Of a DNA stretch of 64,000 nucleotides, positions 11,934-46,336 are shown piece after piece. This stretch comes from Candidatus Omnitrophota bacterium. Lineage in GTDB: Bacteria > Omnitrophota > Gorgyraeia > Gygaellales > Profunditerraquicolaceae. Made by a program: the position numbers and the translations under genes. The notes under the pieces are model-generated. The model was given only the letters and a program-made list of their open reading frames with translations, ran no database searches and was not told the origin of the DNA. The first letter of the stretch is position 1, and each line of letters opens with the position of its first letter. The stretch covers positions 84,638-148,637 of the forward strand of contig JAQUQW010000003.1 of NCBI GenBank assembly GCA_028716245.1, given 5' to 3'.

Positions 11934-11944
11934 CGTTTTCCGAC

Positions 11945-13312: not shown

Positions 13313-13327
13313 TAAGGTGAGGCTGGA

Positions 13328-14878: not shown

Positions 14879-14881
14879 AGG

Positions 14882-19662: not shown

Positions 19663-19663
19663 C

Positions 19664-20512: not shown

Positions 20513-20520
20513 TTTTTATT

Positions 20521-22697: not shown

Positions 22698-22707
22698 CTT
22701 AATACTC

Positions 22708-22756
22708 CTTGCCCACACGGGCACACCCGCATAATTCCTTATAAGCGCGGAGTGTT
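22708..22756 (-). promoter_or_regulatory. Conserved leader/operator element (copy B) upstream of the SBP-permease-GH transcription unit
   Basis: cttgcccacacgggcacacccgcataattccttataagcgcggag. It aligns 39/45 with copy A, with the same TGCCC-N4-GGGCA palindrome immediately 5' of the RBS. Confidence 0.5.
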
Positions 22757-22860
22757 CTGTTTTTGGTGGGAGATTTATTCCCTAGGAATAGATCATAAAA
22801 AGACATAATACAAAAATTTAACATATTTTAGCCAACAAATCAAGTTCTTTATTGGCTAAA

Positions 22861-28929: not shown

Positions 28930-28951
28930 CGGCTTTATCTCTTTTCCAAAT

Positions 28952-33433: not shown

Positions 33434-33453
33434 TTTTCTTCCTCCTTATAAAA

Positions 33454-36400
33454 TTAATTTTTACCGCTTACTGCGTTCTCTTCTATCTTTTGCTTCTCAG
33501 CTGCATCATTAATTTCTTTGGTTTCTTTCACTAGTGGCGCGAAAGAAACTATTATTTTTTTATTTTGATCGTCATTCTTATTTATATCTTCCATCTTTCC
33601 TTTAACGATTTTGATGGCGACATCGCCGATCTCTTGTAATTCTCCTTCTTTAGCCAATCTTCTCCACTCTTTCCAGTAGATATCGACGCCTGCCCAAGCT
33701 GCTCCCAACATTATTTTGTCAAAAGTTACAAAATTTAAACCCGTTCCAAGATCTTTGAAATATTCGAAATATTTATCCACAGCCAGTGTATCGCTAGGCG
33801 TAGCAATATTAACACCCAGCTGTAAGCCGTCTTCGCCGGGAATAATACCCATATCTTTCAAGATATATTTCCAAGCAATAATTACCGCGCCGCTCTGAGT
33901 TCCTTTAAGTTCGGTAATTTGTAAACCAAAATCCTTTCTTTCTTTGACAGGCAATGCCGCTCTTACTTCTTTAAATGCCTCTAACTCAAGGCGGTTGATC
34001 TCCCAAAAATCGCCAATCGCCCTGGCTGCTCCTAATAAACCATAGTCAGGGTTAGGATTAACCTGTTCCACCAAGAAACCGAAATTCATATTCCTAAATA
34101 CCAGGCAATTCAAACTTGTTGTCTTATGCACCACAAATTGCCCTTTATTTTTCTCTATAATTTCTTGCATCTGCTGCTTAAACGAATCCTTTATGAATTC
34201 CTTAGCGGATTTTCCGTTAAGGCGGCTGACAATTCTCTTCCTCATGTCCGCGAAATATCTATTCCTTAATTCTTCCAGCCAATTTTTAGATAACGCTGCT
34301 CCATCATTACGGGTTATTTTATCAAGTTTATCCTGTAAAAATTCTTTTATGATTTTCTCAGGTTCTTTTTTAATCTTTTCCTGTATTTCGTTAATTAAAC
34401 TCAGTTTCTTATCCTGGTATTTCTCTTTTGCGATTTTATCCAGCTCATCGATTAATTTCCCCACATATTCGTCAAATACTTTTCCTAAAGAATCTTCTAA
34501 AGTTTTACCTTTTATCTGTTCATTTTCAAACGCCAACAGAACTAACGGGTTAAACTCAATCTTCGAATAAACGCTATTCGCATTTTCTTCAACGGCCTGT
34601 TTTGTATCTATTTGCGGGTCATACTGCGGTATTGGCAAGGAGCGGACAATTGCTTTTTTCTTTTCAACCTTAAGATTACCTTTATAAATCTTCTTGGCTG
34701 CGTAGTCAATCGTGACAAATTGCCCTTCTAATTGCGGGCGCATCGCGCCTATACCCTTGGCAATAGCTTTTATTCTTGTAGGTACGATACCCTTGTCGCG
34801 GCGAAACACATCCCAGCCATCCAGATTTACGTCGCCATCGACAATAATTGCCTTCGCGTATTGCAAATCATCCCAATCAATGCCCCTTCTTTCAAGCCCT
34901 TCAATGGTATTGTCCCAGCATTTCTGCCAAATAGCCATTATTTTAGTCCGCTCATCATCACTGAATCTTCTATCTTTTAATTGAGCGGAAAATTTCTTAG
35001 CGTGCACGTTAAGATTGGTCCATACGTAAAGATTATTTCCTATAGGCTTAAGCAACCCCTCTCGTTTAAACTGTTCAAAATATGCCGGGGTCATCGCTTT
35101 CACTAATTCATCTTCAGAAATAGCGACAAGGTTTCGGTTTAAAACAACGACCTTATTATATGTTTTCATTGTGCTGCGCGCGCTCTCTAAGCTTTGTAAC
35201 TTTAAGAATTCTCTTTTCTCTTCTAACTCCGCGCCTTCCAACCCTTTTAACGCATCGGGCAATAAATCTTCCGCTTTCTCTACGTAAATCACTTCGCCTT
35301 TAATAACTCCTGTGCGTTGTTTAACTTCCCCTGCGTTTAGATCAAACAATACCTCTTTTTCCGATTCAGGCGCGATGATTTCTTTTGTTGCCGACATTGT
35401 ATCGAGCCGGGTCATCGATGCCAAAAGCCGGACCGACATCATGCTTATGCCAAAAGAATCCAATAAATTCATAATCTTTCCGGCAGAATCATAATCCCCT
35501 CTTCCCACTAAACTGGTAACCGATTCTCCGCAAAGGTTTATTCGGATACCTAGCTCTTTCGCTTCCTTTACTACCGCCTCCATTAACTGAATCATTACAT
35601 CCGCACCTTCGTCAATTAAAGGCAACTTCTTAATGCTATCATTATAGAAAAATCCCGCCTCTTTAATCGCGTTAATCGCTTTAATAGCCGCAGGGTCAAG
35701 AAGCTCCAGCTTCATCCGCGGATCTTCTCTGTCGCCTTTACCGGCAAGATGAGAATAATCGTTTGTTCCAAAAGAAAAAAAGGTAAGTTCCACCCCGTAT
35801 TTTTTGTATTTTTCCCTCATTGCCAGCAATTTCTTACCGAGTTTATCCGCCAGTATAGCGTCACTGGGAACTTCAATCATAATACCGATCTGTTTAGGCA
35901 GCTTTCCTTTTCTAGCCGCTATTCTCTCAAGAGCGATATCTAACATGTCCAATTCCCTGACGAATCGTATAAAAACATAAAACCAGGCTTGGTTATGGGT
36001 GTTCTGGTTAGCATCAATAACCGAGTCCAACAAAAAGCTCAACACCTTCTGATTACCATCAAAATCCTCATCTATTCCCTCAATTTCCAGAGAGGCGCCT
36101 CTTAAGCCCACTAATGGATTGACACCGGGCCAGGAAAATATTTCAGAGCCGGGCATCCCCCTAATTTTATCCTGCGCGAAGTCATAGGCCCTGTTCTTTG
36201 CTTTCTGATCCGGACTAACACTAAATCCCATTAAGTTATAGAAAGTACGAAATTCTGTCCCGACGTATTTCCCAAATGACGAATACCCTTTTTCTACCAA
36301 CTTGTTTTCTATCTCTTTAAGAATCCAAGGGCTCTTGTTTAATTGAGAAATAATATTATAATCAAAATTAAATCTTCTTTGCATAGCGCCGTATTGATCT

Positions 36401-39400
36401 GTTAACGCTGACACTATACCGGGTATTTTCATGGAATAATCTAATAAACGCAGTTGCTCCCTGTTTAGCGGGGAATCTTGCTCTCGTAATTTCATAAGAT
36501 CGAAAATACTTAACAATTTTATGCCGTCTTCAATCTTATATTCCCTGCTAAATTGCTCTTTAAAGCCATTTAAAATCTCCGGCTTATCCTTATAATATTT
36601 AAAAATTTCATTATTTACTTTAGAAACAAATTTTTCAGAGCCTTCAATCTTTCCTTCAATTAACTGCTCTACGGTTACCAGCTCCGGCATTTTTGAACGG
36701 CCCGCTTTAATATTCTGAATAAGATCGTAGCCGTAACCCGCGAATACATTCAAACCTAATTGCTCCGCTTTAAATTCAGCGCGGGTTAATGCATTACCCG
36801 CGTCATCTTCAGCCAGCATAATCGGCGCATTCTGTTGAGCGGTCGAATCCGAAGCAATAATCTGGCCGATTGAGGGATATGGCATTCCATCGTCATCTCC
36901 CGGGATACCGTATGGCTTAATCCTGAATTTTACGAAATTGACCGGGATTCTCTTTGCTGGATCAGGTTCAAGTTTGTATAGAAGACCATTATTGGCGTCT
37001 ACAGTTAAACCATCTCCCGTAGCCACAAGCCTTTCCTCAAGTGTAAACTTACCCACCCCTGTTACAGCCGGAATACCCTGCTCTCTGCAGAAAATTGCCG
37101 CGTGGCAGGTATCTCCTCCTCTAATAGTAATTACCGCGTCCACCAGCCGCATAATCGGATCATGGTTCGGATCCGCTTCTAACAAATATAACGCTATCGG
37201 CAAAACCTTATCTTTACCTATACCGAATTCATCGGGATTAAATCCCAGTTTCTTTATCTGCCTCTTTTCTTCATCGCTAAACTGTCCTGCCTTTAATCTT
37301 CTTATTGTCTCAGCATGCCAATCAATGGTTTTATTTGGGTCAAATACCAGCACATACGCTTCGGTCGCATTTTCGCCTTTTGTACCGCTGGTAATAGCTT
37401 TTATATTATTATCCTCAATAAATTTCTCGTCCACTTCACTTCTTTGCCGGACAACATCGGTTTTTTGAATAGCGGCGGTATAAGGACGCGCCTGCACGTT
37501 ATAGAGTTTTAAAACAACTTTTCCTCCCCTAGCTGTATCTTCAACTTTTACCAGTTTGCCGTCTTTTTGCATTTTAAGGCGAGCGCCATCCACATCGGCA
37601 GTATATGCTTCGAGCCGGCCTTCCTGGCCTTTAGGCACAGAAGGGTCTATCTCAACCGCGAACTCAATATCTCTCTGGTCTTTATAAAAATTTGCAATGT
37701 TCCATGCCATATGGGCAATCTCAATTGCTTCCTCATCGTTAATACTAAATGAGTCCTGATGAGTAGGCGTGGTTTCCAAATTACAGGTAAAGCTATTATC
37801 TACCAGCGCCCTTATGAGATAACTTAAGTTCCTCATTTCTTTAGCTTCTAACCCCAATTTTTTTAATACGTCGCCTCTATGCACTAAATCGAATTCCTTA
37901 TTTTCCCACACCTCTTTTGTCATCAGTATAAACGCTTCGGCTGTTTCTATGCTATTGCCAAAAAACTCATGCAAACTACTCATCCCGGCTTTTGCCTCAT
38001 TGCTGGCGTTTTCAACCGAAGCAAAAACTTCTTGTATTAATTTATTAACTGCCGATTCCTTTAGTCCATTCTTTTCATTATTAGGAGAAACATGGAAATT
38101 CTGCTTGATATATTCTTGTACCGCGCCTATTGAACTATTCGCCTTGATCATATTCGCTATATCTGTGGCGATTTTTTGTACTCGCGCTTTTTTATCTTTC
38201 TCGGTTTCTGTTTTATCCGGTAATTCGTTTAAATACCGTGTCCCGTATAAATTTGTGACCAAAATGCCGTTTATCCTTTTGTCAACCTCATCGTAACTAA
38301 TTGCTTTTTCCACCATACCTGCCAATGACCGTATCTTATCCTGGCTTAGTTTGCTTTTTAAGAGGTCGATCGATTTTTCAATGTTAATCATCTGAATAAG
38401 CTTAGTGCCCTTATGCCTTTCTAAGAAAAACCAGTTTATGCCGTCATAAGTAGCCATAACAAATTTATCCGGATCGACTTTCCCTCCAACTACATTTTCT
38501 CCATAACCATAAGCGATTTCAAAGCTGACTACTATCGGCTTTGTGCCGACTATATTGCCTTCTTTATCTAACTGCACCAGGCTTTTGTCGCCTTTCCAGG
38601 CCTTATATAATGCCTGTGAAACACCCGCCATCTTGGTCGCCGGGTTAACCGAAAAAATTACACCGGCCAAATAACTCCTAACCATTTGCATAATCACAAC
38701 GTCGATTCCGATCTCTTCAGGATGGATAAATTCCAAAGCGATTTTTTGCATCGTTTCCAAACTGTGTCTTATCTCGGGATTGTTTTCATATTTTAAAATC
38801 TCTTCCATCGCATTCATTAAATTTACCGAACCGGGATTGCGGTAATTAGTTAAAGTTTCGGCATAGTCGGTAAATTCCGGCTTGTTCAATCTTACAGCGT
38901 ATTCGCGGAGCTTATTGATTAAATCATAATATACGCGCTTGGGCTGCTTGCCTTCAAATTCGATTGCGCTGGAAAAAATCAAAAATATAGCATCATCTCT
39001 ATAGCTTACTGCCCTATCTGTAAAAAGGCTGGCCCAATCAGCTTTCAGTTTATCAAGCACATTTTTTTCACCGCTGACATTAAGAAAAGTATCGGATTGG
39101 CCTGCCTGGGAACCAGTAGTAATCGGAAGCCAAGACGAGACCTTGATATCTTCTTTTATACCCGAGCTTCTCACCGCAACTCTTGCGGGGATGTCTTTTT
39201 TCGCCAGAACGCGCAGGACATTCAACTGGCGATACATTACTAATACCTCGTTTTTGATATCATCCGGAATCGAAGAACGTTTCATGACTTCTCGGATTTT
39301 TCTAGTTATTGCGTCCCTTTTCTGGTCATCCATCGTATCTAATACTTTTAATTCTTCTTTGATTAAGTCATACAGTTCAGGGTTTGCTTTCACAAATTTA

Positions 39401-40257
39401 AAATAAGCGGTTGTGGTAACATTAAATCCGGGGGGAACGCTGACTACATCATCCATAATGGCCAGGCTCAACCCCTTGCCGCCCGCAAGCCTCAACCCGT
39501 CATTTTTTAAGAAAACCGCATATTCTTCTTTTAATATTTTAAGTTGGTTTTTAGCATCTGGGGTATTTTGTTGTTGTAGTTGTTTTATTTTTTCTTTATA
39601 TTCTTCGTTTTTATTCGTAAATTCCTGATCGTGATATAGCCTTAATTCACGGTAATCCAGAGTCATTCTGTCCGCGACAGCTATCGTAGCTCTCTTTTCC
39701 AAGAAAAGATAATCGGATAATACAATATCTATAGCTTTTATACCTTCTGCCTTAGCCTTAGCGGCATCTTCAACGAACGCCTCAAGCGGAATCTTCTTTA
39801 TGTCTTCACCAATTTTCTTTATGCTAAAACCCGCGTTGTCTTTTTTCACGAAGGCCACCGGTTCACCGATAAAATAAAGCACAGAATATTCTTCTCCGTC
39901 CTTTACCGAAGCGCCAAACACTTCTTCCATTTTCTTTTTCGCTTCAGGAGAATGCTCTAAATCAATTACCTGTTTAGAGTAAGTATCGAATGAAAAATTA
40001 ACGGTTGAAGAAACTTTATAATCACCCAGCATTTCCCGCATAAAGTCATTTTTAATGCTGGTTATGCTCAAATCTTCTGTGAACGCTTCTGGTCTTAGCT
40101 TGTCCGCAGCTGCATAGGCCTGTTTAATAGACGCATTAGTGAGAATAAAACTGGCTAACACAACTCCTATAATAAACTTTGAAACCAGGCCGTCTTTAGA
40201 AAACTGCGCGGACATTTTCTTCTCCTTTTTTAAATAAGTTTTTGATTTTTTATGCAT
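33454..40257 (-). CDS. Giant secreted multi-domain protein (2267 aa) with a complete PEP synthase / pyruvate-phosphate-dikinase-like module
   Basis: The N-terminal hydrophobic leader (..KFIIGVVLASFILTNASIKQAYAA) is paralogous to the leader of the 1493-aa protein. The PPDK/PEPS N-terminal ATP-grasp carries GGKGLSLAIMDD..PPGFNVTT..VAVRSSGIKED..WASLFTDRAVSYR. The phospho-His swivel domain carries RGGDTCHAAIFCREQGIPAVTGVG. The PEP-utilising TIM barrel carries IMIEVPSDAILAD...FFSFGTNDYSHL...NLCGESV. About 700 aa of unassigned K/E-rich C-terminal sequence follow. Confidence 0.65.
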   Translation of the reverse strand: MHKKSKTYLKKEKKMSAQFSKDGLVSKFIIGVVLASFILTNASIKQAYAAADKLRPEAFTEDLSITSIKNDFMREMLGDYKVSSTVNFSFDTYSKQVIDLEHSPEAKKKMEEVFGASVKDGEEYSVLYFIGEPVAFVKKDNAGFSIKKIGEDIKKIPLEAFVEDAAKAKAEGIKAIDIVLSDYLFLEKRATIAVADRMTLDYRELRLYHDQEFTNKNEEYKEKIKQLQQQNTPDAKNQLKILKEEYAVFLKNDGLRLAGGKGLSLAIMDDVVSVPPGFNVTTTAYFKFVKANPELYDLIKEELKVLDTMDDQKRDAITRKIREVMKRSSIPDDIKNEVLVMYRQLNVLRVLAKKDIPARVAVRSSGIKEDIKVSSWLPITTGSQAGQSDTFLNVSGEKNVLDKLKADWASLFTDRAVSYRDDAIFLIFSSAIEFEGKQPKRVYYDLINKLREYAVRLNKPEFTDYAETLTNYRNPGSVNLMNAMEEILKYENNPEIRHSLETMQKIALEFIHPEEIGIDVVIMQMVRSYLAGVIFSVNPATKMAGVSQALYKAWKGDKSLVQLDKEGNIVGTKPIVVSFEIAYGYGENVVGGKVDPDKFVMATYDGINWFFLERHKGTKLIQMINIEKSIDLLKSKLSQDKIRSLAGMVEKAISYDEVDKRINGILVTNLYGTRYLNELPDKTETEKDKKARVQKIATDIANMIKANSSIGAVQEYIKQNFHVSPNNEKNGLKESAVNKLIQEVFASVENASNEAKAGMSSLHEFFGNSIETAEAFILMTKEVWENKEFDLVHRGDVLKKLGLEAKEMRNLSYLIRALVDNSFTCNLETTPTHQDSFSINDEEAIEIAHMAWNIANFYKDQRDIEFAVEIDPSVPKGQEGRLEAYTADVDGARLKMQKDGKLVKVEDTARGGKVVLKLYNVQARPYTAAIQKTDVVRQRSEVDEKFIEDNNIKAITSGTKGENATEAYVLVFDPNKTIDWHAETIRRLKAGQFSDEEKRQIKKLGFNPDEFGIGKDKVLPIALYLLEADPNHDPIMRLVDAVITIRGGDTCHAAIFCREQGIPAVTGVGKFTLEERLVATGDGLTVDANNGLLYKLEPDPAKRIPVNFVKFRIKPYGIPGDDDGMPYPSIGQIIASDSTAQQNAPIMLAEDDAGNALTRAEFKAEQLGLNVFAGYGYDLIQNIKAGRSKMPELVTVEQLIEGKIEGSEKFVSKVNNEIFKYYKDKPEILNGFKEQFSREYKIEDGIKLLSIFDLMKLREQDSPLNREQLRLLDYSMKIPGIVSALTDQYGAMQRRFNFDYNIISQLNKSPWILKEIENKLVEKGYSSFGKYVGTEFRTFYNLMGFSVSPDQKAKNRAYDFAQDKIRGMPGSEIFSWPGVNPLVGLRGASLEIEGIDEDFDGNQKVLSFLLDSVIDANQNTHNQAWFYVFIRFVRELDMLDIALERIAARKGKLPKQIGIMIEVPSDAILADKLGKKLLAMREKYKKYGVELTFFSFGTNDYSHLAGKGDREDPRMKLELLDPAAIKAINAIKEAGFFYNDSIKKLPLIDEGADVMIQLMEAVVKEAKELGIRINLCGESVTSLVGRGDYDSAGKIMNLLDSFGISMMSVRLLASMTRLDTMSATKEIIAPESEKEVLFDLNAGEVKQRTGVIKGEVIYVEKAEDLLPDALKGLEGAELEEKREFLKLQSLESARSTMKTYNKVVVLNRNLVAISEDELVKAMTPAYFEQFKREGLLKPIGNNLYVWTNLNVHAKKFSAQLKDRRFSDDERTKIMAIWQKCWDNTIEGLERRGIDWDDLQYAKAIIVDGDVNLDGWDVFRRDKGIVPTRIKAIAKGIGAMRPQLEGQFVTIDYAAKKIYKGNLKVEKKKAIVRSLPIPQYDPQIDTKQAVEENANSVYSKIEFNPLVLLAFENEQIKGKTLEDSLGKVFDEYVGKLIDELDKIAKEKYQDKKLSLINEIQEKIKKEPEKIIKEFLQDKLDKITRNDGAALSKNWLEELRNRYFADMRKRIVSRLNGKSAKEFIKDSFKQQMQEIIEKNKGQFVVHKTTSLNCLVFRNMNFGFLVEQVNPNPDYGLLGAARAIGDFWEINRLELEAFKEVRAALPVKERKDFGLQITELKGTQSGAVIIAWKYILKDMGIIPGEDGLQLGVNIATPSDTLAVDKYFEYFKDLGTGLNFVTFDKIMLGAAWAGVDIYWKEWRRLAKEGELQEIGDVAIKIVKGKMEDINKNDDQNKKIIVSFAPLVKETKEINDAAEKQKIEENAVSGKN
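35450..39550 (-). other. PEP synthase/PPDK-like three-domain module (nucleotide-binding, phospho-His, PEP/pyruvate TIM barrel)
   Basis: See the parent CDS. The catalytic His (GGDTCHAA) lies near 37115 and the GTNDYSH/CGE motifs near 35560-35775. Confidence 0.6.
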
Positions 40258-40301
40258 GCGCTAATTAATTATGAGGACAAAAAACTGTTGATTATATGTT
40301 T

Positions 40302-40327
40302 GTAACCGGGGACGGGAAATTCCCGTC
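40302..40327. terminator. GC-rich hairpin ggggacggg-aaatt-cccgtcccc followed by ATTTTT (between the 1279-aa and 2267-aa giant genes)
   Basis: It shares the ccggggacg arm start with the nrdJ terminator palindrome at 7476. It has plus-oriented terminator geometry although the flanking genes are on the minus strand, so it may act bidirectionally or as an mRNA-processing/attenuation hairpin. Confidence 0.4.
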
Positions 40328-40348
40328 CCCGATTTTTCCTTAAATGAA

Positions 40349-43300
40349 TTAAATTGCAACTACAGCCGCGACTTCTGCTTTATATTCTTCAACTGCATTT
40401 GCAATAGAAGGTATTACCGCATTAGATTTAACTGTAAAACTGCCCTTTGCATCTTGAGCGAATAATGCATCCAATGCCGTCAATTTATCATTGGTTAACG
40501 TACCCTCTGAAATGAGATTTAACGCTAGTTTCAATGCCTTAGCCATTGAAACTGTCTGTCCTTTTTCTTTTGTTTCCCCAAGTACGATCATATTCTCAGA
40601 AGAACCCTTGAACTGTTCAATATAGCCCTGAGAACCAATTACGACATAAATACCCGTGCCGAATTTCTCGTTTACAACGTTAACTACATTCGCGGGATTT
40701 TTGCCTACCACAATACTGGCGAACATATCCCGGTTTAAGTTAGTGAAATCTCCATTGATATCATTTACTTTCGCAAAGAACTTATCCACCAACTTATTCG
40801 CTTCTTCAGCACTTATTTTACTAGGAACATCGATAATAAACTTAATGTTGTTTTTGCTAAGCTCGCCTTTCTTAAGAAACTTTCCCTGCTTTTCAAGAAG
40901 TTGTTTAAGCACGTTTTCCAAAGCCATAACCCCATCAGGGCCTGATTCAACAAGAGCGGCATAGTTTATAACTACTGGGATGGCCTTATCACCACGCGTA
41001 TTTTTTTCCACAACAGCATCAGGGACATTAACGTCGATATCATCTGAGAATGCATCCATAATCGGCACCGCCGGGCCATACTTAACTAATTTAGAAACTT
41101 TGGCCCCGCCCTTAAAGGAAACTTTCTCTAAATACCTTTTACCGAAAAGAAGCTCTAAAACATCGGCAATTGTAGAGTTTTCATCCCCGCCTATCTCACC
41201 TACCTCAGTCTCGACTCCGCTGTCTTGGTGTATTAATGTTGCCAAAAACGCGCTAACCAATGCGTTTAACCTCATTGGCATAAATGAAGCATCTAAAGCA
41301 AATTCGGTAAAACCAGCTGCAACTTCCACCTCAACTAATTTATACGCCTTTTCAATTGCTTTAAGCGCGCCTAATACATTCTTTTGAGTTTGAGTAGGAT
41401 TGGATAACTCTTTTAATTCCTTAACTTTACTTGCAAAAATCGCTTTTCTCTGAACAATATCTTTTTCTTTTAAAATATTATTAAGAAGCTTGGCAACTTC
41501 TTCTTGGGCTTCCTTATCCTTCAAAAACTCCTTATCCGCTTTTACGGTTACATGGTCTCCTTTGATAATGAAATTTTTAAACCCAAGCGCTTTAGTTCTT
41601 GCTTTTATCAATTCAGCAAACTTTTTAGGATTGTCGAACGAAAAACCGCCCGCATAGGTATAATCCAATTCGCTCATTGCCTGCTGGAATATAACAAAGC
41701 TCTTTGTGTTGATTGCCGCTTTAATAATTCCATCTATACTCAAAGGCGTTCGAATATTATCAGCCATAATGATGCGATCTGTGTCTTTTAATGCGTCCAA
41801 AACAATACGCCCCGGATAAGAGGCGCCTTCCGGCACTATAAAAGGCTCGGGTTTGACAGAATCAATAATGCCGCCATTATTATCGACTAATCTGGTTTCA
41901 AACCAAGCGCAGGGCTTCCCGTTTACCACACCTAAACGCAAAAAATTGATTTTACTTCCTTGCTCTCCAATTTCTACGCCATCTGTTCTGAATACGCCAT
42001 TATTGCTGATAAATGCCATAGATCCACGAATACTGGCATCTATATCGCTATGCATATACAATACTTTACCGGCAATAATATCCTTCCATTCTTCGGGATA
42101 GGCTTTCTTTATGGCGTCTATTTCACTTTCTTGCTCCCCTTCTTTTGGTTTGTCGCTAAAAGCGTACCTGCGTTTTAAATCCTTTGCATCTTTACCATCC
42201 GAAGCCTTATTTACATTCTCAGAAACTAACCGATTAAAGACAAGCGCGCCTAATGCCTTAAATCCACTGCCTATGGCGCGAATATATTCTCCTTCCGGAG
42301 CGCCGACTAAAGTCATCATAACTTTATGTTTCTCTCTTGTTTTAATACCAAGGATGGCATCGATACCATGCGCTACCGTTCCGTCTTTGATAGTCGTAAG
42401 CGTTAATCCTTTATATTTTTCCTGCAATTGCTTTATTGCGGCTATTCTTGCTGTTTCTCTGGGCCTATCCATTATTACAACTTCTAAGTCGCCAATGGTT
42501 TTCCCGTTAGCTTTTGCAATCCTATCCAGCATTGCTTCTATTTTATTAATATCACCATCCGCGGTTAACTCCGGGTCTAATGGATTAGCAATAAATTCTA
42601 TCAACTTCTCAGGAGGCACCCGGGTAACAACCTGATCTATATAAGCATCTAAGGTATTACGCATAAATCTTTTAACACCGGGCCCATAAAGCATAATGCT
42701 GGTTGCCCCAGATTCTTTTTCTTTTAAATCTGCTGTTGCTTTTCCATATACATTAGCAACAAACGCGTTTGTTCCCTCGATTACATCCATAATCCCATAT
42801 TCTATTCTAAACTTCTCTCCGCTTGTTGATGTATATTCATCTAAACCATCCTCTATCGCGGCTTTAATAATCGCTGCTTCTTCCGCCTTAAGGCTTTCCG
42901 GGATTATAACATCGCCTGCCTTAAAGCTGGCTTTTAGCGCATCCCTGCCAAATCCTTCACTTACACGCGCTATTAAAATAATTTTTTCACGATTCACTAT
43001 TTCTTGGAATATTGCTTTTGCCGCTCCATCTGCTTCATCTTTAATAAGGTTTATTTGATTTTTAAGAGCATCTGTTTCATCTTTTTTTGTTTTAATTATT
43101 AATTCGTTATTTCCCGCCTTTTCTAGTTCTTTTACTTCCTTTTCCAAAGCTTCTTTCTTTATTACTAAATCTAGCGCTTTCCCACGTAAACCTTTTACAG
43201 TTAAAACAGCAGCGGTTGCGCCTGTGATCTGAAGAGAAAAATCATCTACTAAGGGCTTAAGCGGCTCATATCCTATTTTAAATACCGAACTTTTTCGAAC

Positions 43301-44188
43301 CGGAACAACAAGGCCGGATTTTAAATAATCATTCACTAAAGCATCCGTTCCCGCGCTGCCAAAAGCGATCATGTGTTCAGTAGCACTTTTTTCTGTAGCT
43401 ATATCAATTTTTTCTTTTACATCGGGAGGTAAATTTTCCCACTCTTGACTATATTTACCTATGAGATTCTTTAGCTCTTTACCAATAAGTCTTTCTAAAT
43501 TCTTTTGGCTAGCTCCTTCTCTCTGGGTAACATCGTATTTCTTACCGTAAGTTTTTATCAAATCATCGATCATCCTATTGACTAAATTTTGCAGTTCAGG
43601 GTGAGTTGTCTTTGCTTCCTGAATTATAACTTCCCATGCTATATTCTGCCAATTAGTTCCCACATGGCCAATCCTCATCCCTACTTTTCTAAGGGACGGA
43701 ATGTTTGGAATCGGTGTGCCGGTTATGCCATGCTGAACTACAAGTATTCCATAATAAGCAAGAATACGAGAAATAGCATCAGTACCCGGTAAATTCATCT
43801 TTGTTTCTATTAAATTGCCGTCTGCATCATAATTATTACCGTGCGCGGTGCCATTGTTCAGGGCTAATAAATAAGGCAAAGGATTCAATTCCTGTGCTGT
43901 TAATAAAGCAAAAAGCCCTTCGGAAGGTTCTTTCGTAACAATTAAGTCGCCTTTTCCAACTCCGGTTTTTATCGCGTTTTTTATAGCAAAAATTTGTTCC
44001 GCGTCTGCTGTGGTCGTAGGATTAGTTTTAGCTGAGTTATTTCTTAAATTAAACGTAGAAACCACGCCTGCGGTAGCAATGTTGCTAAAAACAAAAGTTA
44101 CTGTAACTACCAATGAAACTAACCTATACCACATCTTTTTATTTAATTGCCCTAACATTTTCCTTCCTCCTGTTTTCTTAATTTTCAT
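40349..44188 (-). CDS. Giant secreted multi-domain protein (1279 aa) with class-II aldolase-like (C-terminal half) and GlpX-type fructose-1,6-bisphosphatase-like domains
   Basis: The signal/anchor is MKIKKTGGRKMLGQLNKKMWYRLVSLVVTVTFVFSNIATA. The aldolase-like region carries NNGTAHGNNY (cf. GTSHGAYK) and ILVVQHGITGTPIPN..LRKVGMRIGHVGTNWQ (cf. PLVLHGGSG.P.E.I..AI..GV.KINIDT..Q). The GlpX-like region carries MDVIEGTNAF (cf. VDPIDGT), VVIMDRPRETARIAAIKQL..LTLTTIKDGTVAHGI (cf. ILDRPRH..LI..IR..GA.V.LI.DGDVA.AI) and MTLVGAPEGEYIRAIGSGFKALGALVFNRL (cf. G.GGAPEGV..AAA.RCLGG..QGRL). Confidence 0.6.
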   Translation of the reverse strand: MKIKKTGGRKMLGQLNKKMWYRLVSLVVTVTFVFSNIATAGVVSTFNLRNNSAKTNPTTTADAEQIFAIKNAIKTGVGKGDLIVTKEPSEGLFALLTAQELNPLPYLLALNNGTAHGNNYDADGNLIETKMNLPGTDAISRILAYYGILVVQHGITGTPIPNIPSLRKVGMRIGHVGTNWQNIAWEVIIQEAKTTHPELQNLVNRMIDDLIKTYGKKYDVTQREGASQKNLERLIGKELKNLIGKYSQEWENLPPDVKEKIDIATEKSATEHMIAFGSAGTDALVNDYLKSGLVVPVRKSSVFKIGYEPLKPLVDDFSLQITGATAAVLTVKGLRGKALDLVIKKEALEKEVKELEKAGNNELIIKTKKDETDALKNQINLIKDEADGAAKAIFQEIVNREKIILIARVSEGFGRDALKASFKAGDVIIPESLKAEEAAIIKAAIEDGLDEYTSTSGEKFRIEYGIMDVIEGTNAFVANVYGKATADLKEKESGATSIMLYGPGVKRFMRNTLDAYIDQVVTRVPPEKLIEFIANPLDPELTADGDINKIEAMLDRIAKANGKTIGDLEVVIMDRPRETARIAAIKQLQEKYKGLTLTTIKDGTVAHGIDAILGIKTREKHKVMMTLVGAPEGEYIRAIGSGFKALGALVFNRLVSENVNKASDGKDAKDLKRRYAFSDKPKEGEQESEIDAIKKAYPEEWKDIIAGKVLYMHSDIDASIRGSMAFISNNGVFRTDGVEIGEQGSKINFLRLGVVNGKPCAWFETRLVDNNGGIIDSVKPEPFIVPEGASYPGRIVLDALKDTDRIIMADNIRTPLSIDGIIKAAINTKSFVIFQQAMSELDYTYAGGFSFDNPKKFAELIKARTKALGFKNFIIKGDHVTVKADKEFLKDKEAQEEVAKLLNNILKEKDIVQRKAIFASKVKELKELSNPTQTQKNVLGALKAIEKAYKLVEVEVAAGFTEFALDASFMPMRLNALVSAFLATLIHQDSGVETEVGEIGGDENSTIADVLELLFGKRYLEKVSFKGGAKVSKLVKYGPAVPIMDAFSDDIDVNVPDAVVEKNTRGDKAIPVVINYAALVESGPDGVMALENVLKQLLEKQGKFLKKGELSKNNIKFIIDVPSKISAEEANKLVDKFFAKVNDINGDFTNLNRDMFASIVVGKNPANVVNVVNEKFGTGIYVVIGSQGYIEQFKGSSENMIVLGETKEKGQTVSMAKALKLALNLISEGTLTNDKLTALDALFAQDAKGSFTVKSNAVIPSIANAVEEYKAEVAAVVAI
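42100..42900 (-). other. GlpX (class II FBPase / F/SBPase)-like domain inside the 1279-aa protein
   Basis: The DRPRE..I..DG(T/D)VA..I and GAPEG signatures sit in the correct order and spacing. The metal-site DxxDGT is present as DVIEGT (Asp to Glu). Confidence 0.55.
43600..43970 (-). other. Class-II fructose-bisphosphate-aldolase-like C-terminal half (degenerate/truncated)
   Basis: The GT.HG.Y and hhhQHG..G.P motifs are present, but no upstream DHG/EAELG half is visible. Confidence 0.4.
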
Positions 44189-44192
44189 TTAT

Positions 44193-45788
44193 TTATTCCT
44201 CATCACTGCCATTTGTACCGCTGTTACCTTTATCTATATTCTCGCTCTGCAGGTTTTTCTTTTCGCTTCTTAAGACGGAAAGATAAACGCTGGAGTCGGT
44301 TTTCTTAGTGATTGTCGGGGTGACTACCGCGTAGGAATAGCCTTTTTCTTTAAACATCTGCGTCATACCGGGCGTGTGAAACCCGCCGGCGATAAATACC
44401 GCTATTTTTTCTCCGGATTCATCCATTTTCTTGACAATGTTCTTAATAAACGCCTGCTCGCGGTCAGAACCCAATTTATAAAATTCCTCAAATTTACTCA
44501 TGTTCTCATCGATTACCCCGGAGGCCGACGGCCGCAGCGCTAAATTGTATTTGGCGCAGTTATCGCTTAAGAAACTTAACCAGGAACCGGTTGACATATC
44601 CGCCCGGTTTGCCTTAAAATATCCGTAATCTTCGGGGGTCAACTCTAAACTGACAACACCTTTAAGCACATCAAGCGCTTTTGAAATTTCATACAATTTT
44701 TTCTGGTCGGCGTTGGCGAAAAGCTCCTCTTTTATTTTCTCTTCCAAAGAACCGACTTCTTTTAAGAGCTGGGCGACATCTATTTTTTTGTTTTCGTTTA
44801 TGTAGCGGATATAGGCGGCCAACTGGGGATAATTTTGTTCAAGGTTGATTCTTTTCTTTGCCGCCAGGTCTTTCAAAAATGAATAATATTCCCCGGAGGT
44901 GATATTTCCAGCCTTAAAATCCTGGCTCTTGTCAACTACAGTTTTTACCTGCTTTTCATTGAGCAGGCTGGCTAAGCTCTTGATAAACTCATTCCTTTGG
45001 GCTTCCGCTTCCTTAAAATCAACCTCTTTTTCCATCCGGGCAAGCTCCGCGAAAGCGCTTAAAAAAGGATAGCTTTGAAGGTCAAAACCTTTATTACTGG
45101 CAATATTTTTAAGATAGCCGCAGTATTCCCCCAAAGATAAAGTTTTATCCTCATAGTTTTTCTTGGCGCTCTCTAAATATTTTACTTCTTCGCTGTAGAT
45201 CTTTGGCTTTAAAGCGTTGACAACTTTGGCTAAATCCTCTAAGTATTTTAAACTTTCGTCCCTAAGGGCATCTACTTTATGAAAAACATCCAAATGCGCC
45301 TCATACAAGGCTTCATCTTCTATCCCGTAAAGGTCAAGAGGATAATCGGCAACAATGTCCAAATACTCTTCGCCTGAGATTTTTCCCAGCTTCAGGTATT
45401 TATCCGCCACGCCTTCCCGGGCTTTTTTATCAGCGTAGTTGCGCAAAAACTCAAGGTTGACATTTCCGCTGCCGCCTTCAACCATGATCAATTTAAGATT
45501 TTGCTCCTTGGCCAGATAATCCAACAACTGCGCCATATTTTTCTGGGCTTCATAATTACAATGGGCATCCTGGATATGGATAATCGTCTTACCTAAATTA
45601 GAATTCTGCGTATTGACAGGTGTAGTGTCCTGGCTATCAAACACCTCTTTGATGTTTCCGAATATGGAGGGAATATTGATGGTTTTTACTAATGAGGTTG
45701 GGCTTGCTAAGCTAATTCCAAAGAAGAAAAAGAATTGGATCGCTAAGAATATTAGAATTTTTCCGCGATGAGGCTTATTTTCCAACAT
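44193..45788 (-). CDS. TraB/GumN/Tiki-superfamily-like secreted protein (first gene of the giant-protein operon)
   Basis: 531 aa with a signal peptide (ILIFLAIQFFFFFGISLASP). The N-terminal TIIHIQDAHCNYE motif (cf. GTMHV..) and the C-terminal VFIAGGFHTPGMTQMFKEKGYSYAVV (cf. VGAGHL.G..G....L...GY.V) match the two conserved motif regions of the TraB/GumN family. The assignment is tentative. Confidence 0.4.
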   Translation of the reverse strand: MLENKPHRGKILIFLAIQFFFFFGISLASPTSLVKTINIPSIFGNIKEVFDSQDTTPVNTQNSNLGKTIIHIQDAHCNYEAQKNMAQLLDYLAKEQNLKLIMVEGGSGNVNLEFLRNYADKKAREGVADKYLKLGKISGEEYLDIVADYPLDLYGIEDEALYEAHLDVFHKVDALRDESLKYLEDLAKVVNALKPKIYSEEVKYLESAKKNYEDKTLSLGEYCGYLKNIASNKGFDLQSYPFLSAFAELARMEKEVDFKEAEAQRNEFIKSLASLLNEKQVKTVVDKSQDFKAGNITSGEYYSFLKDLAAKKRINLEQNYPQLAAYIRYINENKKIDVAQLLKEVGSLEEKIKEELFANADQKKLYEISKALDVLKGVVSLELTPEDYGYFKANRADMSTGSWLSFLSDNCAKYNLALRPSASGVIDENMSKFEEFYKLGSDREQAFIKNIVKKMDESGEKIAVFIAGGFHTPGMTQMFKEKGYSYAVVTPTITKKTDSSVYLSVLRSEKKNLQSENIDKGNSGTNGSDEE

Positions 45789-45825
45789 TTTCTCCTTCCT
45801 TTCTCGCGGCCGGCAACAAATAAGA

Positions 45826-45902
45826 CAGCCGCGATTTTTTTAATTGAGCTAACAACTCCGGCGAAAAGCCGGAGTTGTTAGCTCAATTAAAAACCGTGGC
45901 TG
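45826..45902. repeat. 77-nt near-perfect inverted repeat (23-bp perfect core arms) in the 5' leader of the giant-protein operon
   Basis: cagccgcg-atttttt-ttaattgagctaacaactccggc-gaaaa-gccggagttgttagctcaattaa-aaaa-ccgtggctg. Confidence 0.6.
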
Positions 45903-45977
45903 TCTTTAATTACCTAACTAGAAAATTATAAGCTTCAGAAAAACTTTTAAAAACTATTTCTCTCAGATTCGTTGTAA

Positions 45978-46005
45978 AGTATACAATATTTAAAAGCCTT
46001 GTCAA
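45978..46005 (-). promoter_or_regulatory. Candidate sigma70 promoter (TTGACA-N16-TATACT, minus strand) for the TraB-like/giant-protein operon
   Basis: -35 is the revcomp of 46000-46005 and -10 the revcomp of 45978-45983. It predicts a ~180-nt leader containing the 45826-45902 palindrome. Confidence 0.35.
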
Positions 46006-46139
46006 GTATTTTTTTAACTTTTTTTCTTTTTTATTTATCAGAGCCAAAACCCTCGGGATATGCAATAGTTAAGTGATTAAAACATCCCCCGGATCATAGG
46101 CAACAATGTCATTTCTGGCCTCCAAAACGTAAGTTAGAT

Positions 46140-46198
46140 AGGGAACGTTTCTATTTTTTACCAGAGTCATACTTTCTTAAAAAATAGACACGTTCCCT
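46140..46198. repeat. Inverted repeat with 20-nt arms (1 mismatch) and 19-nt loop downstream of the giant ORF stop
   Basis: agggaacgtttctatttttt ... aaaaaatagacacgttccct. Confidence 0.5.
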
Positions 46199-46250
46199 GG
46201 TTTTTCGCCTGTCAGACTCGCCTTAATATGAATTTAAAGTGCACTTATCC

Positions 46251-46310
46251 AGATTGGACAAATATCAAGCCAGAATGGACAATAATACGCTCTATTATTA
46301 AGATTGGACA
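46251..46310. repeat. Three direct repeats AGAWTGGACA (46251, 46272, 46301) immediately 3' of the giant ORF
   Basis: agattggaca / agaatggaca / agattggaca with 21- and 29-nt spacing in an ORF-free 550-bp region. Confidence 0.4.
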
Positions 46311-46336
46311 TAAGTTACACTTAATATTTCTGAAAT

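What the first reader, a model, noticed from the sequence alone, without database searches (positions are those of the whole stretch)
40349..44188. 1279-aa protein fusing an aldolase-like half-domain with a GlpX-type FBPase-like domain
A class-II aldolase C-terminal signature (GT.HG.Y; VVQHGITG..RIGHVGTNWQ) lies near the N-terminus, but the zinc-binding N-terminal half appears missing. A GlpX-like domain (DVIEGT; VIMDRPRE...DGTVAHGI; LVGAPEG...ALG..VFNRL) lies ~400 aa downstream. Together with the neighbouring genes this completes an FBA, F/SBPase, TPI, GAPDH, PGK set, which is the regenerative or gluconeogenic upper-pathway set. The partly degenerate aldolase suggests some domains may have been repurposed, for example as sugar-phosphate-binding modules.
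Basis: partly seen in the sequence, partly recalled or inferred. Interest (0 to 1): 0.8.

Follow-up and report, generated by a model that had tools for sequence, protein, structure and literature searches.

The report
Permuted aldolase with a nested FBPase
This gene from an uncultured Omnitrophota bacterium encodes a signal-peptide-bearing fusion enzyme: a complete sugar-bisphosphate aldolase barrel whose two parts sit in swapped order, with a complete GlpX-type fructose-bisphosphatase inserted between them, so the "missing" aldolase half is present after all.

Summary
The ORF (40349..44188, minus strand, 1279 aa; likely start M11, giving 1269 aa) is real, conserved and under purifying selection (dN/dS 0.10). 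The aldolase and GlpX signatures are real. The claim that the zinc-binding half is missing is wrong. Strands beta1-5 lie at residues ~790-1040, downstream of GlpX. Strands beta6-8 lie at ~85-300. The class II aldolase is therefore circularly permuted, and a complete GlpX module (~301-780) is inserted where the old C- and N-termini were joined. All three Zn histidines, the catalytic Asp and 9 of 10 GlpX active-site residues are conserved across the family. AlphaFold models both pieces as one closed barrel. Relatives at ~50% identity carry the same aldolase in canonical order or permuted without an insert. The gene occupies a conserved operon slot downstream of an Omnitrophota giant SecA-domain gene, next to PPDK and TIM-GAPDH-PGK fusions. 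In another genome this slot holds a bifunctional FBP aldolase/phosphatase (PF01950) with the same C-terminal domain. Most likely it converts triose phosphates to FBP and then F6P. Every protein in the set has a Sec-type signal peptide, so its location is unresolved. Glycolytic domains in Omnitrophota giant proteins were already reported; I found no report of this permuted, nested architecture.

The parts
40349..44188 (-). Whole ORF, 1279 codons plus stop. The probable real CDS is 40349..44158 (1269 aa, start at M11).
   Evidence: ORF list and translation. Orthologues P0001 and P0002 start at MLGQLNKK. AGGAGG lies at 44166..44171, 7 nt upstream of the ATG at 44158. dN/dS is 0.10 against the 93%-identical orthologue in L004.
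44069..44158 (-). Sec-type signal peptide or signal anchor, residues 11-40. It has a K/K/R n-region, a 16-18-residue hydrophobic core and A-T-A|G at positions -3 to +1. A conserved L48-R49 motif follows 8 residues later.
   Evidence: This is the only hydrophobic segment in the protein. The same n/h/AXA pattern, followed by [DS]xLR[xP], is present in nearly all family members and in the neighbouring ORFs. The assessment is heuristic only; no SignalP-type predictor was available.
43289..43936 (-). Class II aldolase, C-terminal part of the barrel: beta6-beta8 plus the C-terminal helical extension, residues ~85-300. It carries Zn ligands H116 (GTAHG) and H153 (QHGITG), T156, H175 (which replaces E. 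coli Asn286) and T178.
   Evidence: Pfam match to profile positions 167-276 of 277. Alignments to GatY and FbaA. Residue table. AF2 places strands at model positions 28-31, 70-73 and 92-97, with pLDDT ~80-97.
43052..43288 (-). Conserved leader of the GlpX module, residues 301-379. It is partly beta and partly a long helix running into GlpX. It travels with GlpX in other architectures.
   Evidence: BLAST shows query residues ~300-770 moving as one block in P0026-P0032. AF2 secondary structure.
41879..43051 (-). Complete GlpX-type class II FBPase domain, residues ~380-770. Active-site residues are D387, E411, D468, E471, T473, Y516, R575, R577 and E632. T604 replaces E. coli Asp188.
41069..41821 (-). 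Class II aldolase, N-terminal part of the barrel: beta1-beta5, residues ~790-1040. It carries N811, D878-H879 (catalytic Asp and Zn His), D966, E993/E995 and the mobile-loop D1002/E1003. A ~65-residue helical insert (residues ~882-950; nt 41339..41545) sits after beta3.
   Evidence: NCBIfam cbbA match of residues 808-1005 to profile positions 21-147. PDB 7ncc_A residues 96-152. De-permuted alignments. Residue table. AF2 places strands at model positions 728-732, 753-758, 794-802, 883-887 and 912-917, with pLDDT ~88-98.
40352..41068 (-). C-terminal domain (CTD) of unknown fold, residues 1041-1279. It is alpha/beta with low model confidence. It recurs as the C-terminal module of signal-peptide-bearing proteins that carry FBP/F6P-node enzymes.
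   Evidence: No Pfam hit. pLDDT is 35-77. The CTD is found at the C-terminus of proteins with FBPase_3, FBA+TIM, PFK+PGI or GlpX domains. dN/dS is 0.10.
23653..63943 (-). Operon context, all on the minus strand and tightly spaced. The genes are: a 5868-aa giant gene (46337..63943; Ser/Thr kinase, M48 peptidase and SecA domains); a 531-aa conserved protein with no Pfam hit (44193..45788); this ORF; a 2267-aa PPDK fusion (33454..40257); a 1493-aa TIM-GAPDH-PGK fusion (28952..33433); and a 1758-aa protein with no Pfam hit (23653..28929).
   Evidence: Pfam scans. One N-terminal signal-peptide-like segment on each of the five downstream ORFs. The same gene order is seen in L004, L007 and L018.

Best explanation
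The ORF encodes one polypeptide with two complete catalytic domains. The first is a metal-dependent class II ketose-bisphosphate aldolase TIM barrel that is circularly permuted: the chain starts, after a signal peptide, with beta6-beta8 and the C-terminal helices (residues ~85-300) and supplies beta1-beta5 much later (~790-1040). The second is a complete GlpX-type class II fructose-1,6-bisphosphatase module (~301-780), inserted exactly where the ancestral C- and N-termini of the barrel were joined. A ~240-residue C-terminal domain of unknown function follows.

Shown: the order of the segments, their colinearity with canonical aldolases once re-ordered, conservation of the active-site residues, purifying selection, the conserved operon slot, and a model in which the two aldolase pieces close into one barrel in cis.

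Inferred: the protein condenses DHAP + GAP to FBP in the barrel and hydrolyses FBP to F6P + Pi in the GlpX domain, which commits triose phosphates to hexose phosphate. It would act with the co-operonic PPDK and TIM-GAPDH-PGK fusions as a gluconeogenic set attached to an Omnitrophota giant-gene locus.

Also inferred, and less certain: the N-terminal Sec-type signal exports or membrane-anchors the protein.
For: (1) Permutation.
- The same PDB aldolase chain matches query 955-1010 with its residues 96-152, and query 135-186 with its residues 190-241.
- The Pfam and NCBIfam half-matches lie in swapped order.
- The re-ordered sequence aligns colinearly with GatY and FbaA through all eight strands.
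- The re-ordered sequence aligns as a single HMMER domain to natural canonical-order relatives P0022-25 and P0008, with E 1e-110 to 1e-129.

(2) Natural series at 44-53% identity.
- Canonical Nhalf-Chalf order: 30 proteins.
- Contiguous permuted Chalf-Nhalf order: 13 proteins, which are PFK/GAPDH or PPDK fusions.
- Chalf-GlpX-Nhalf-CTD, the type found here: 6.
- P0033 has the order FBA-GlpX-FBA.

(3) Structure.
- The native-order AF2 model has pLDDT 82.9 and pTM 0.76 over 1200 residues.
- Foldseek, which aligns sequentially, finds aldolases only weakly in native order (E 0.03-0.08, TM <=0.37).
- For the re-ordered construct (pTM 0.85), the top 50 Foldseek hits are all class II aldolase-family structures (FBP, tagatose-BP and sulfofructose-phosphate aldolases, YdjI, GatZ-like), with E ~1e-11 and TM up to 0.83.

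(4) Catalytic residues.
- Aldolase N35, D109, H110, D144, E174, H226, G227, H264, G265 and T289 equivalents are kept in 30 of 30 members (roles from PMC11194214).
- GlpX D33, E57, D85, E88, T90, Y119, K164(R), R166 and E213 equivalents are kept in at least 43 of 46 modules (list from PMC5892879).

(5) Selection. dN/dS is 0.05-0.19 in every segment.

(6) Context.
- The same operon slot holds permuted FBA+PFK+GAPDH in L007.
- In L018 it holds a signal-peptide-bearing PF01950 protein (the bifunctional FBP aldolase/phosphatase family) that ends in the same CTD.
- This is non-orthologous displacement by an enzyme that performs exactly the inferred two-step reaction.
Against: - No activity was measured.
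- Two family-wide substitutions sit in the active sites: E. coli FbaA Asn286 becomes His175 (30 of 30), and GlpX Asp188 becomes Thr604 (43 of 46). Substrate specificity or chemistry may therefore differ from FBP.
- The equivalent of the aldolase mobile-loop Glu182 is not strictly conserved.
- Scores are far below the NCBIfam equivalog cut-offs: 39 against 259 bits for glpX, and 27 against 216 for cbbA.
- AF2 and co-variation cannot distinguish a barrel closed in cis from one closed between subunits.
- A Sec-type signal peptide on FBA/FBPase, and on ATP- and NAD-dependent neighbours, is hard to reconcile with ordinary cytoplasmic gluconeogenesis.
- Enolase and phosphoglycerate mutase were not found in this window's set.
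Confidence: 0.72

Rival explanations
1. The two aldolase pieces do not pair within one chain. They complement in trans: the beta6-8 piece of one subunit pairs with the beta1-5 piece of another, giving a domain-swapped dimer or polymer. In that case the 'permutation' acts as an assembly device for a multi-enzyme lattice.
For: Class II aldolases and GlpX are obligate oligomers (PMC5892879; and established knowledge). About 480 residues separate the two pieces. AF2 and co-variation cannot tell intra-chain from inter-chain contacts. P0006, P0008 and P0033 show tandem FBA-GlpX-FBA arrays.
Confidence: 0.12
2. Both domains are folded and catalytic but act on other substrates, for example tagatose-, sedoheptulose- or sulfosugar-bisphosphates. 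Alternatively one domain is a regulatory pseudoenzyme, so the protein is not an FBP aldolase/FBPase pair.
For: Family-wide Asn286 to His and Asp188 to Thr substitutions. The protein and its closest stand-alone relatives fall below every NCBIfam FBA equivalog cut-off. Structural neighbours include tagatose-BP, sulfofructose-phosphate and YdjI aldolases as well as FBP/SBPases.
Against: The metal ligands and general acid/base residues are intact. The operon partners (TIM, GAPDH, PGK, PPDK) produce exactly DHAP and GAP. The slot can be filled by PF01950 FBP aldolase/phosphatase, or by FBA+PFK.
Confidence: 0.13
3. One reading: only a degenerate C-terminal aldolase half survives, and it has been repurposed as a sugar-phosphate-binding module next to GlpX.
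For: Pfam's best stretch covers only profile positions 167-276. Pfam reports nothing convincing for the N-terminal half at default settings.
Against: The N-terminal half, with its DH motif, is present at residues 790-1040. Both halves are under purifying selection. The re-ordered sequence is a full aldolase by sequence and by fold.
Confidence: 0.02
4. The ORF is an artefact: a fragment of a longer multi-domain giant gene that was cut inside an aldolase domain by an assembly or sequencing error, or by gene decay.
For: In other Omnitrophota the same enzyme domains lie inside giant ORFs. P0006 and P0008 are contig-truncated arrays. The upstream ORF ends only 4 nt before this one.
Against: The same boundaries, a dedicated Shine-Dalgarno sequence, an ATG and a signal peptide recur on independent contigs from JGI, NCBI and Logan samples, and in relatives at 42-78% identity. 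dN/dS is 0.10. The N-terminal module of signal peptide plus beta6-8 is shared by about 20 proteins.
Confidence: 0.03

Closest known systems
Class II (metal-dependent) fructose/tagatose-bisphosphate aldolases (PF01116; E. coli FbaA and GatY, Bacillus FBA 7ncc/7nc7)
   Same: Same (beta/alpha)8 fold. Same Zn ligands (three His plus Glu), catalytic Asp and phosphate-binding glycines. The de-permuted model matches them at TM up to 0.83.
   Different: The strand order is beta6-8 then beta1-5, a circular permutation. A 480-residue FBPase module sits at the old termini. There is a ~65-residue helical insert after beta3. Asn286 is replaced by His. The protein has an N-terminal signal peptide. It belongs to a divergent subfamily that falls below all NCBIfam FBA cut-offs.
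GlpX / class II FBPase (PF03320; E. coli 1ni9/3d1r, M. tuberculosis 6ayy, cyanobacterial FBP/SBPase 3roj)
   Different: It is embedded inside another enzyme rather than standing alone as a ~330-residue tetramer subunit. It has several insertions and a conserved 80-residue leader. Asp188 is replaced by Thr. Sequence identity is only ~21-25%.
Bifunctional FBP aldolase/phosphatase (FBPase class V, PF01950; the Say and Fuchs 2010 enzyme, cited from my own knowledge)
   Same: Same inferred net reaction (triose phosphates to FBP to F6P). In L018 a PF01950 protein occupies the same operon slot, with the same signal peptide, LR motif and CTD.
   Different: There is no sequence or fold relationship. 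Here the two steps sit in two separate catalytic domains, not in one remodelling active site.
Omnitrophota giant proteins ('Archaeovorins'; 'multi-enzyme metabolic clusters')
   Same: Same phylum and same locus type. West-Roberts et al. 2023 list TPI, GPI, FBPase, PGM, FBA and PPDK domains in Archaeovorins, predict them to be extracellular, and describe pilZ and ABC-transporter genes downstream, as in this window. The 2026 preprint describes sugar-metabolism modules and widespread signal-peptide/TM content.
   Different: This is a separate 1.3-kaa gene downstream of a 5.9-kaa SecA-domain gene, not part of a protein over 10 kaa. Neither paper mentions the permuted aldolase, the nested GlpX, the conserved five-gene set, the CTD or the LR motif.
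Transaldolase as a circularly permuted relative of class I aldolase barrels (from my own knowledge; not checked here)
   Same: A precedent for circular permutation of an aldolase TIM barrel.
   Different: It belongs to a different (Schiff-base) superfamily, has no inserted domain, and the permutation is ancient. Here canonical and permuted forms coexist at ~50% identity.

Membership tests
Class II fructose/ketose-bisphosphate aldolase (PF01116) | Sequence match above the curated family threshold | tested here: met
   Pfam 37.1 bits against a cut-off of 25.5. NCBIfam subfamily and equivalog cut-offs are not reached: cbbA 27 against 215.6.
Class II fructose/ketose-bisphosphate aldolase (PF01116) | (beta/alpha)8 barrel fold | tested here: met
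   The native-order model aligns to whole small TIM barrels (177 of 190, 194 of 228). For the de-permuted model the top 50 hits are all class II aldolase-family structures, with TM up to 0.83.
Class II fructose/ketose-bisphosphate aldolase (PF01116) | Zn site: three His (E. coli H110, H226, H264) plus Glu174 | tested here: met
   H879, H116, H153 and E995 are kept in 30 of 30 family members. Residue roles from PMC11194214.
Class II fructose/ketose-bisphosphate aldolase (PF01116) | Catalytic Asp109 (DH motif) | tested here: met
   D878, 30 of 30.
Class II fructose/ketose-bisphosphate aldolase (PF01116) | Mobile-loop Glu182 (DHAP deprotonation) | tested here: inconclusive
   D1002/E1003 align here. 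Glu is present in most permuted members but varies in canonical-order fusions, and loop alignment is uncertain.
Class II fructose/ketose-bisphosphate aldolase (PF01116) | Asn286 (E. coli numbering; its role is from my own knowledge of the mutagenesis literature) | tested here: not met
   Replaced by His175 in 30 of 30 Omnitrophota fusion members. Asn is retained in the stand-alone relatives.
Class II fructose/ketose-bisphosphate aldolase (PF01116) | Canonical beta1 to beta8 chain order | tested here: not met
   The order is beta6-8 (residues 85-300) then beta1-5 (residues 790-1040).
Class II fructose/ketose-bisphosphate aldolase (PF01116) | Aldol cleavage or condensation activity on FBP | not testable with these tools
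   Needs an enzyme assay.
GlpX / class II FBPase (PF03320) | Sequence match above the curated family threshold | tested here: met
   Pfam 43.4 bits against a cut-off of 27. The TIGR00330 equivalog cut-off is not reached: 39.1 against 259.3.
GlpX / class II FBPase (PF03320) | Complete GlpX two-domain fold | tested here: met
GlpX / class II FBPase (PF03320) | Active-site residues Asp33, Glu57, Asp85, Glu88, Thr90, Tyr119, Lys164, Arg166, Asp188 and Glu213 (PMC5892879) | tested here: inconclusive
   Nine of 10 are kept: D387, E411, D468, E471, T473, Y516, R575 (Arg, as in M. tuberculosis), R577 and E632. Asp188 is Thr604 in 43 of 46 modules.
GlpX / class II FBPase (PF03320) | Stand-alone ~330-residue subunit of a homotetramer | tested here: not met
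   It is nested inside an aldolase in a 1.27-kaa chain. The oligomeric state cannot be tested here.
Bifunctional FBP aldolase/phosphatase (PF01950) | Homology to the FBPase_3 family | tested here: not met
   No PF01950 hit in the query. The query only shares the CTD and the operon slot with PF01950 proteins.
Omnitrophota giant proteins (Archaeovorin type) | Giant single ORF (over 10 kaa) with many TM helices, SecA-like domains and sugar-metabolism domains | tested here: not met
   The ORF is 1279 aa with one hydrophobic segment and no SecA domain. It lies in the same operon as a 5868-aa SecA-domain gene, and homologous slots follow ORFs of 7-30 kaa.
Sec-dependent secreted or signal-anchored proteins | N-terminal positively charged n-region, 15-20-residue hydrophobic h-region and an AXA-type c-region | tested here: inconclusive
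   The pattern is present and conserved: KK..R / LVSLVVTVTFVFSNI / ATA|G. No dedicated predictor and no experimental test were available.

The most novel reading that the evidence does not exclude
The signal peptides are real. Omnitrophota would then export a whole gluconeogenic/glycolytic enzyme set (PPDK, PGK, GAPDH, TPI, permuted FBA::GlpX) across the cytoplasmic membrane, marked by a lineage-specific 'signal peptide + xLRxP' tag and possibly handled by the SecA-like motor of the adjacent giant protein. Central carbon metabolism would then run outside the cytoplasm: in the periplasm, on the cell surface or inside attached prey. In this system TIM-barrel enzymes have repeatedly been circularly permuted; the aldolase here is one case and the TPI in the next gene is probably another.
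Probability: 0.25. Interest if true: 0.9.

Novelty: new variant of a known kind. Interest (0 to 1): 0.62.

Why it matters
Four reasons.

1. It corrects an annotation trap. Domain scanners see only "half an aldolase" because the barrel is permuted. Public names for relatives range from "class II FBA, partial" to "6-phosphofructokinase" and "type II GAPDH".

2. It offers a clean natural series for protein-evolution studies. Canonical, permuted, permuted-with-nested-enzyme and FBA-GlpX-FBA forms coexist at ~50% identity. I found no report of circular permutation in class II aldolases.

3. It is a two-domain analogue of the single-domain bifunctional FBP aldolase/phosphatase and can be exchanged with it in the same operon slot. 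This ties a concrete metabolic role (triose phosphate to F6P) to the little-understood giant-gene loci of predatory or epibiotic Omnitrophota.

4. Every member of the set carries a secretion signal. If export is real, the finding makes the puzzling "extracellular glycolytic domains" noted by West-Roberts et al. directly testable with a tractable 1.3-kaa protein instead of a 30-kaa one.

Tried and rejected
- A homologue search with the C-terminal domain alone returned nothing, even though P0001 is 93% identical. I treated this as a tool failure. The CTD was characterised instead from the representative-library hits.
- The CTD fold could not be assigned. It has low pLDDT and no Pfam hit.
- I tested whether the protein is a two-sided truncation of a P0033-like FBA-GlpX-FBA ancestor. 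Both halves are slightly closer to P0033's first aldolase (51% and 49%) than to its second (47% and 44%), so that specific route is not supported. A rough NJ tree groups contiguous-permuted and GlpX-inserted forms together, but places P0034 apart. The order of events is unresolved.
- No modules are shared between this ORF and its operon neighbours, apart from N-terminal leader similarity between the 1493- and 2267-aa ORFs.
- The window contains no tRNA genes.
- Kizina et al. 2022 (PMC9004380) is not held in the library. Seymour 2023 and Williams 2021 do not mention these fusions.
- The GTDB representative scan found only 7 loci. All are of the contiguous-permuted or partial type, and none carries the GlpX insert.
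- I could not determine whether the same genome also encodes ordinary cytoplasmic FBA or FBPase.

Full report
OBSERVATION. A 1279-codon ORF occupies 40349..44188 on the minus strand. Pfam gives two matches above threshold. F_bP_aldolase scores 37.1 bits against a cut-off of 25.5; its best stretch is residues 106-225, matching profile positions 167-276 of 277. FBPase_glpX scores 43.4 bits against 27, covering residues 549-675. NCBIfam cbbA aligns residues 808-1005 to profile positions 21-147. A single solved aldolase (7ncc_A) matches the query twice in swapped order: chain 96-152 with query 955-1010, and chain 190-241 with query 135-186. The likely initiation codon is M11 (ATG at 44158). It has AGGAGG 7 nt upstream, and the close orthologues start there. 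Residue numbers below count from the first ATG at 44188.

ANATOMY. The parts, in order, are as follows (coordinates):
- Residues 11-40: the only hydrophobic segment of the protein. It has a K/K/R-rich n-region and A-T-A|G at its end.
- Residues ~85-300: aldolase strands beta6-beta8 and the C-terminal helices.
- Residues 301-379: a conserved leader that always travels with the GlpX module.
- Residues ~380-770: GlpX.
- Residues ~790-1040: aldolase strands beta1-beta5, with a ~65-residue helical insert after beta3.
- Residues 1041-1279: a C-terminal domain (CTD) with no Pfam match.

Joining residues 785-1030 to residues 75-300 gives a sequence that aligns colinearly with E. coli GatY and FbaA through all eight strands. 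A similar chimera (790-1035 + 85-300) aligns as one uninterrupted HMMER domain to natural canonical-order relatives, with E 1e-110 to 1e-129.

A NATURAL SERIES. Relatives are rare. There are 196 hits among 1.84 billion representative proteins. Those that carry source names are Omnitrophota. A module census finds the same aldolase subfamily at 44-53% identity in four arrangements:
- Canonical Nhalf-Chalf order: 30 proteins, mostly fused to TIM, enolase or PPDK.
- Permuted and contiguous, SP-Chalf-Nhalf: 13 proteins, followed by PFK+GAPDH or PPDK.
- Permuted with the GlpX block between the pieces: this ORF, P0001-P0005 and P0034.
- FBA-GlpX-FBA: P0033.

In the contiguous permuted proteins, query 11-300 maps to subject 1-296 and query 780-1039 maps to subject 290-538. 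The GlpX block of this ORF therefore sits exactly at the junction of the old C- and N-termini. A rough NJ tree groups the two permuted classes. Whether the permutation came before the insertion is not settled.

STRUCTURE. AlphaFold2 on residues 80-1279, with a 26-row alignment, gave mean pLDDT 82.9 and pTM 0.76. That pTM is high for a 1200-residue chain in which the last ~240 residues are poorly modelled. I infer that the aldolase pieces and GlpX are placed confidently relative to each other.

Foldseek shows the contrast. In native order, class II aldolases score only E 0.03-0.08 with TM <=0.37. For the re-ordered construct (pLDDT 84.2, pTM 0.85), the 50 best hits are all class II aldolase-family structures, at E ~1e-11 and TM up to 0.83.

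ACTIVE SITES. I used the E. coli FbaA residue roles summarised in PMC11194214: Zn bound by His110, His226 and His264 plus Glu174; Asp109 as proton donor; Glu182 on a mobile loop. The equivalents here are H879, H116, H153, E995 and D878. With the N35, D144, G227, G265 and T289 equivalents, they are invariant in all 30 family members regardless of segment order. Two caveats apply:
- The Asn286 equivalent is His175 in all 30 fusion proteins, while stand-alone relatives keep Asn.
- The Glu182 equivalent (D1002/E1003) is variable.

For GlpX, PMC5892879 lists Asp33, Glu57, Asp85, Glu88, Thr90, Tyr119, Lys164, Arg166, Asp188 and Glu213. Nine are kept here, each in at least 43 of 46 modules: D387, E411, D468, E471, T473, Y516, R575, R577 and E632. 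Asp188 is Thr604 in 43 of 46.

Against the 93%-identical orthologue on L004, dN/dS is 0.10 overall. By segment it is 0.05 (GlpX), 0.08 and 0.12 (the aldolase pieces), 0.10 (CTD) and 0.19 (leader). All parts are under purifying selection.

CONTEXT. All genes in the window are on the minus strand. Upstream lies a 5868-aa gene with Ser/Thr-kinase, M48-peptidase and SecA domains. It is followed by a 531-aa protein with no Pfam hit, then this ORF, a 2267-aa PPDK fusion, a 1493-aa TIM-GAPDH-PGK fusion and a 1758-aa protein with no Pfam hit. Next come pilZ, an ABC sugar importer, a GH2-like protein, ROK and LacI genes. West-Roberts et al. describe this same downstream neighbourhood for Omnitrophota giant genes.

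The core order recurs in other genomes: a giant gene, then a ~511-535-aa protein without Pfam hits, then X, then a PPDK fusion, then a TIM/PGK(/enolase/GPI) fusion. X differs between loci:
- L004: the orthologue of this ORF.
- L007: permuted FBA+PFK+GAPDH, after a 30,339-aa ORF.
- L018: a 1019-aa protein with a PF01950 domain, the bifunctional FBP aldolase/phosphatase family.

The PF01950 proteins end in the same CTD as this ORF. They also start with the same kind of leader. This displacement by an unrelated enzyme that performs aldol condensation plus FBP hydrolysis is the strongest contextual argument for the inferred function. The CTD otherwise occurs on proteins carrying FBA+TIM, PFK+PGI or GlpX. 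It is therefore tied to the FBP/F6P node, but its own role is unknown.

MECHANISM. My commitment, at about 0.7 confidence: the barrel condenses DHAP and GAP to FBP, and the nested GlpX domain removes the 1-phosphate. Together they pull triose phosphates irreversibly to F6P, downstream of the co-operonic PPDK, PGK, GAPDH and TPI domains. The architecture, residue conservation, selection and synteny are shown. The substrates, the direction and any substrate channelling are inferred.

LOCALISATION. This remains open. Each of the five ORFs after the giant gene has one N-terminal segment with a basic n-region and an AXA-like end. Across the family this is followed 5-12 residues later by a [DS]xLR[xP] motif. 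By the positive-inside rule this predicts export or an N-in/C-out anchor. West-Roberts et al. also predicted glycolytic domains of Archaeovorins to be extracellular and flagged the oddity. The 2026 preprint reports that 94% of long Omnitrophota proteins carry signal-peptide or TM content. ATP- and NAD-dependent enzymes outside the cytoplasm would be remarkable, so I treat export as the novel case (probability ~0.25) rather than as established.

COMPARISON AND NOVELTY. It works like an FBA plus a class II FBPase, and in net terms like the PF01950 bifunctional enzyme. As for membership, it belongs to the PF01116 and PF03320 superfamilies by sequence, fold and metal sites. It fails the canonical chain order, the Asn286 and Asp188 positions and every NCBIfam equivalog cut-off. 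It is best filed as a new architectural variant.

Glycolytic domains in Omnitrophota giant proteins, and 'multi-enzyme metabolic clusters', are already described. I found nothing on circular permutation of class II aldolases. The two Omnitrophota giant-protein papers say nothing of the nested GlpX, the conserved accessory operon, the CTD or the leader motif.

Verdict: a real, conserved and probably active enzyme fusion. Interest 0.62; novelty: new variant of a known kind.

Noticed in passing
window 28952..33433 (-), residues ~61-480 of the 1493-aa ORF: The triosephosphate isomerase barrel of the neighbouring TIM-GAPDH-PGK fusion also looks circularly permuted. The beta4-beta8 part (LGHSATRE, ANEP, YGASV motifs; residues ~61-370) precedes the beta1-beta3 part (VNLK; residues ~371-480). 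The catalytic Lys, His and Glu appear to be kept. Support is weak: phmmer E 4.5e-4 and 5e-3 against P0033's TIM, and a Pfam match only to profile positions 102-221.
   Followed up: partly
N-termini of window ORFs 40349..44188, 33454..40257 and 28952..33433; also P0001-P0036, P0075, P0076, P0084, P0095, P0107 and P0142: A conserved leader consisting of a basic n-region, an ~18-residue hydrophobic core and an AXA-like site, followed 5-12 residues later by [DS]xLR[xP]. Examples are AAADKLRPEAF, GTVDKLRAPVV and STFNLRNNS. It marks nearly all of these multi-enzyme proteins and may be a lineage-specific sorting signal.
   Followed up: partly
L018 10001-13060 (GCA_023247825.1); also P0081, P0084, P0095 and P0118: Signal-peptide-bearing proteins with a PF01950 (bifunctional FBP aldolase/phosphatase family) domain plus the same C-terminal domain as the query. 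In L018 this protein sits in the same operon slot, between a 535-aa protein with no Pfam hit and a PPDK fusion.
   Followed up: yes
window 46337..63943 (-): A 5868-aa ORF with a Ser/Thr protein kinase domain (residues ~1118-1278), an M48 peptidase domain, SecA DEAD / preprotein-binding / P-loop domains near residues ~5040-5620, and several TM segments. This is the Omnitrophota SecA-type giant-gene class, here at modest size.
   Followed up: partly
window 44193..45788 (-); L004 8367-9965; L007 8452-9987; L018 8360-9967: A 511-535-aa signal-peptide-bearing protein with no credible Pfam match (only sub-threshold hits) always sits immediately upstream of the aldolase/FBPase slot. It contains an HIQDAHCNYEAQ motif. 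Its function is unknown.
   Followed up: no
window 23653..28929 (-): A 1758-aa protein, Ser/Thr-rich after its signal peptide, with no Pfam hit. It closes the run of large ORFs before pilZ.
   Followed up: no
window 1..23556: Downstream of the large ORFs lie pilZ (22861..23556), an ABC sugar importer (SBP 21399..22724 and two permeases), a TPR+GH2-like protein, ROK and LacI genes, then RNR, MnmG, a two-component system and a porin. The pilZ and transporter arrangement matches what West-Roberts et al. report downstream of giant genes.
   Followed up: partly
L015 (JAHIYG010000011.1) and L009 (CAYQXW010000036.1): Contigs encoding relatives of the aldolase are binned as 'Candidatus Altiarchaeota archaeon' (36% identity) and 'uncultured Planctomycetales' (51%). 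This could reflect mis-binning or transfer.
   Followed up: no
L018 4809-8180: A 1123-aa protein combining a PF01676 Metalloenzyme domain (the phosphoglycerate-mutase/phosphopentomutase superfamily) with methyltransferase domains lies between pilZ and the conserved 535-aa gene. It may supply the mutase step that is missing from the window's set.
   Followed up: no
P0033, P0037, P0051, P0006 and P0008: Some relatives carry two or more aldolase copies in one chain (FBA-GlpX-FBA; N-C-C-N-C-C patterns). This indicates tandem amplification of these modules, which is the raw material for permutation by duplication.
   Followed up: partly
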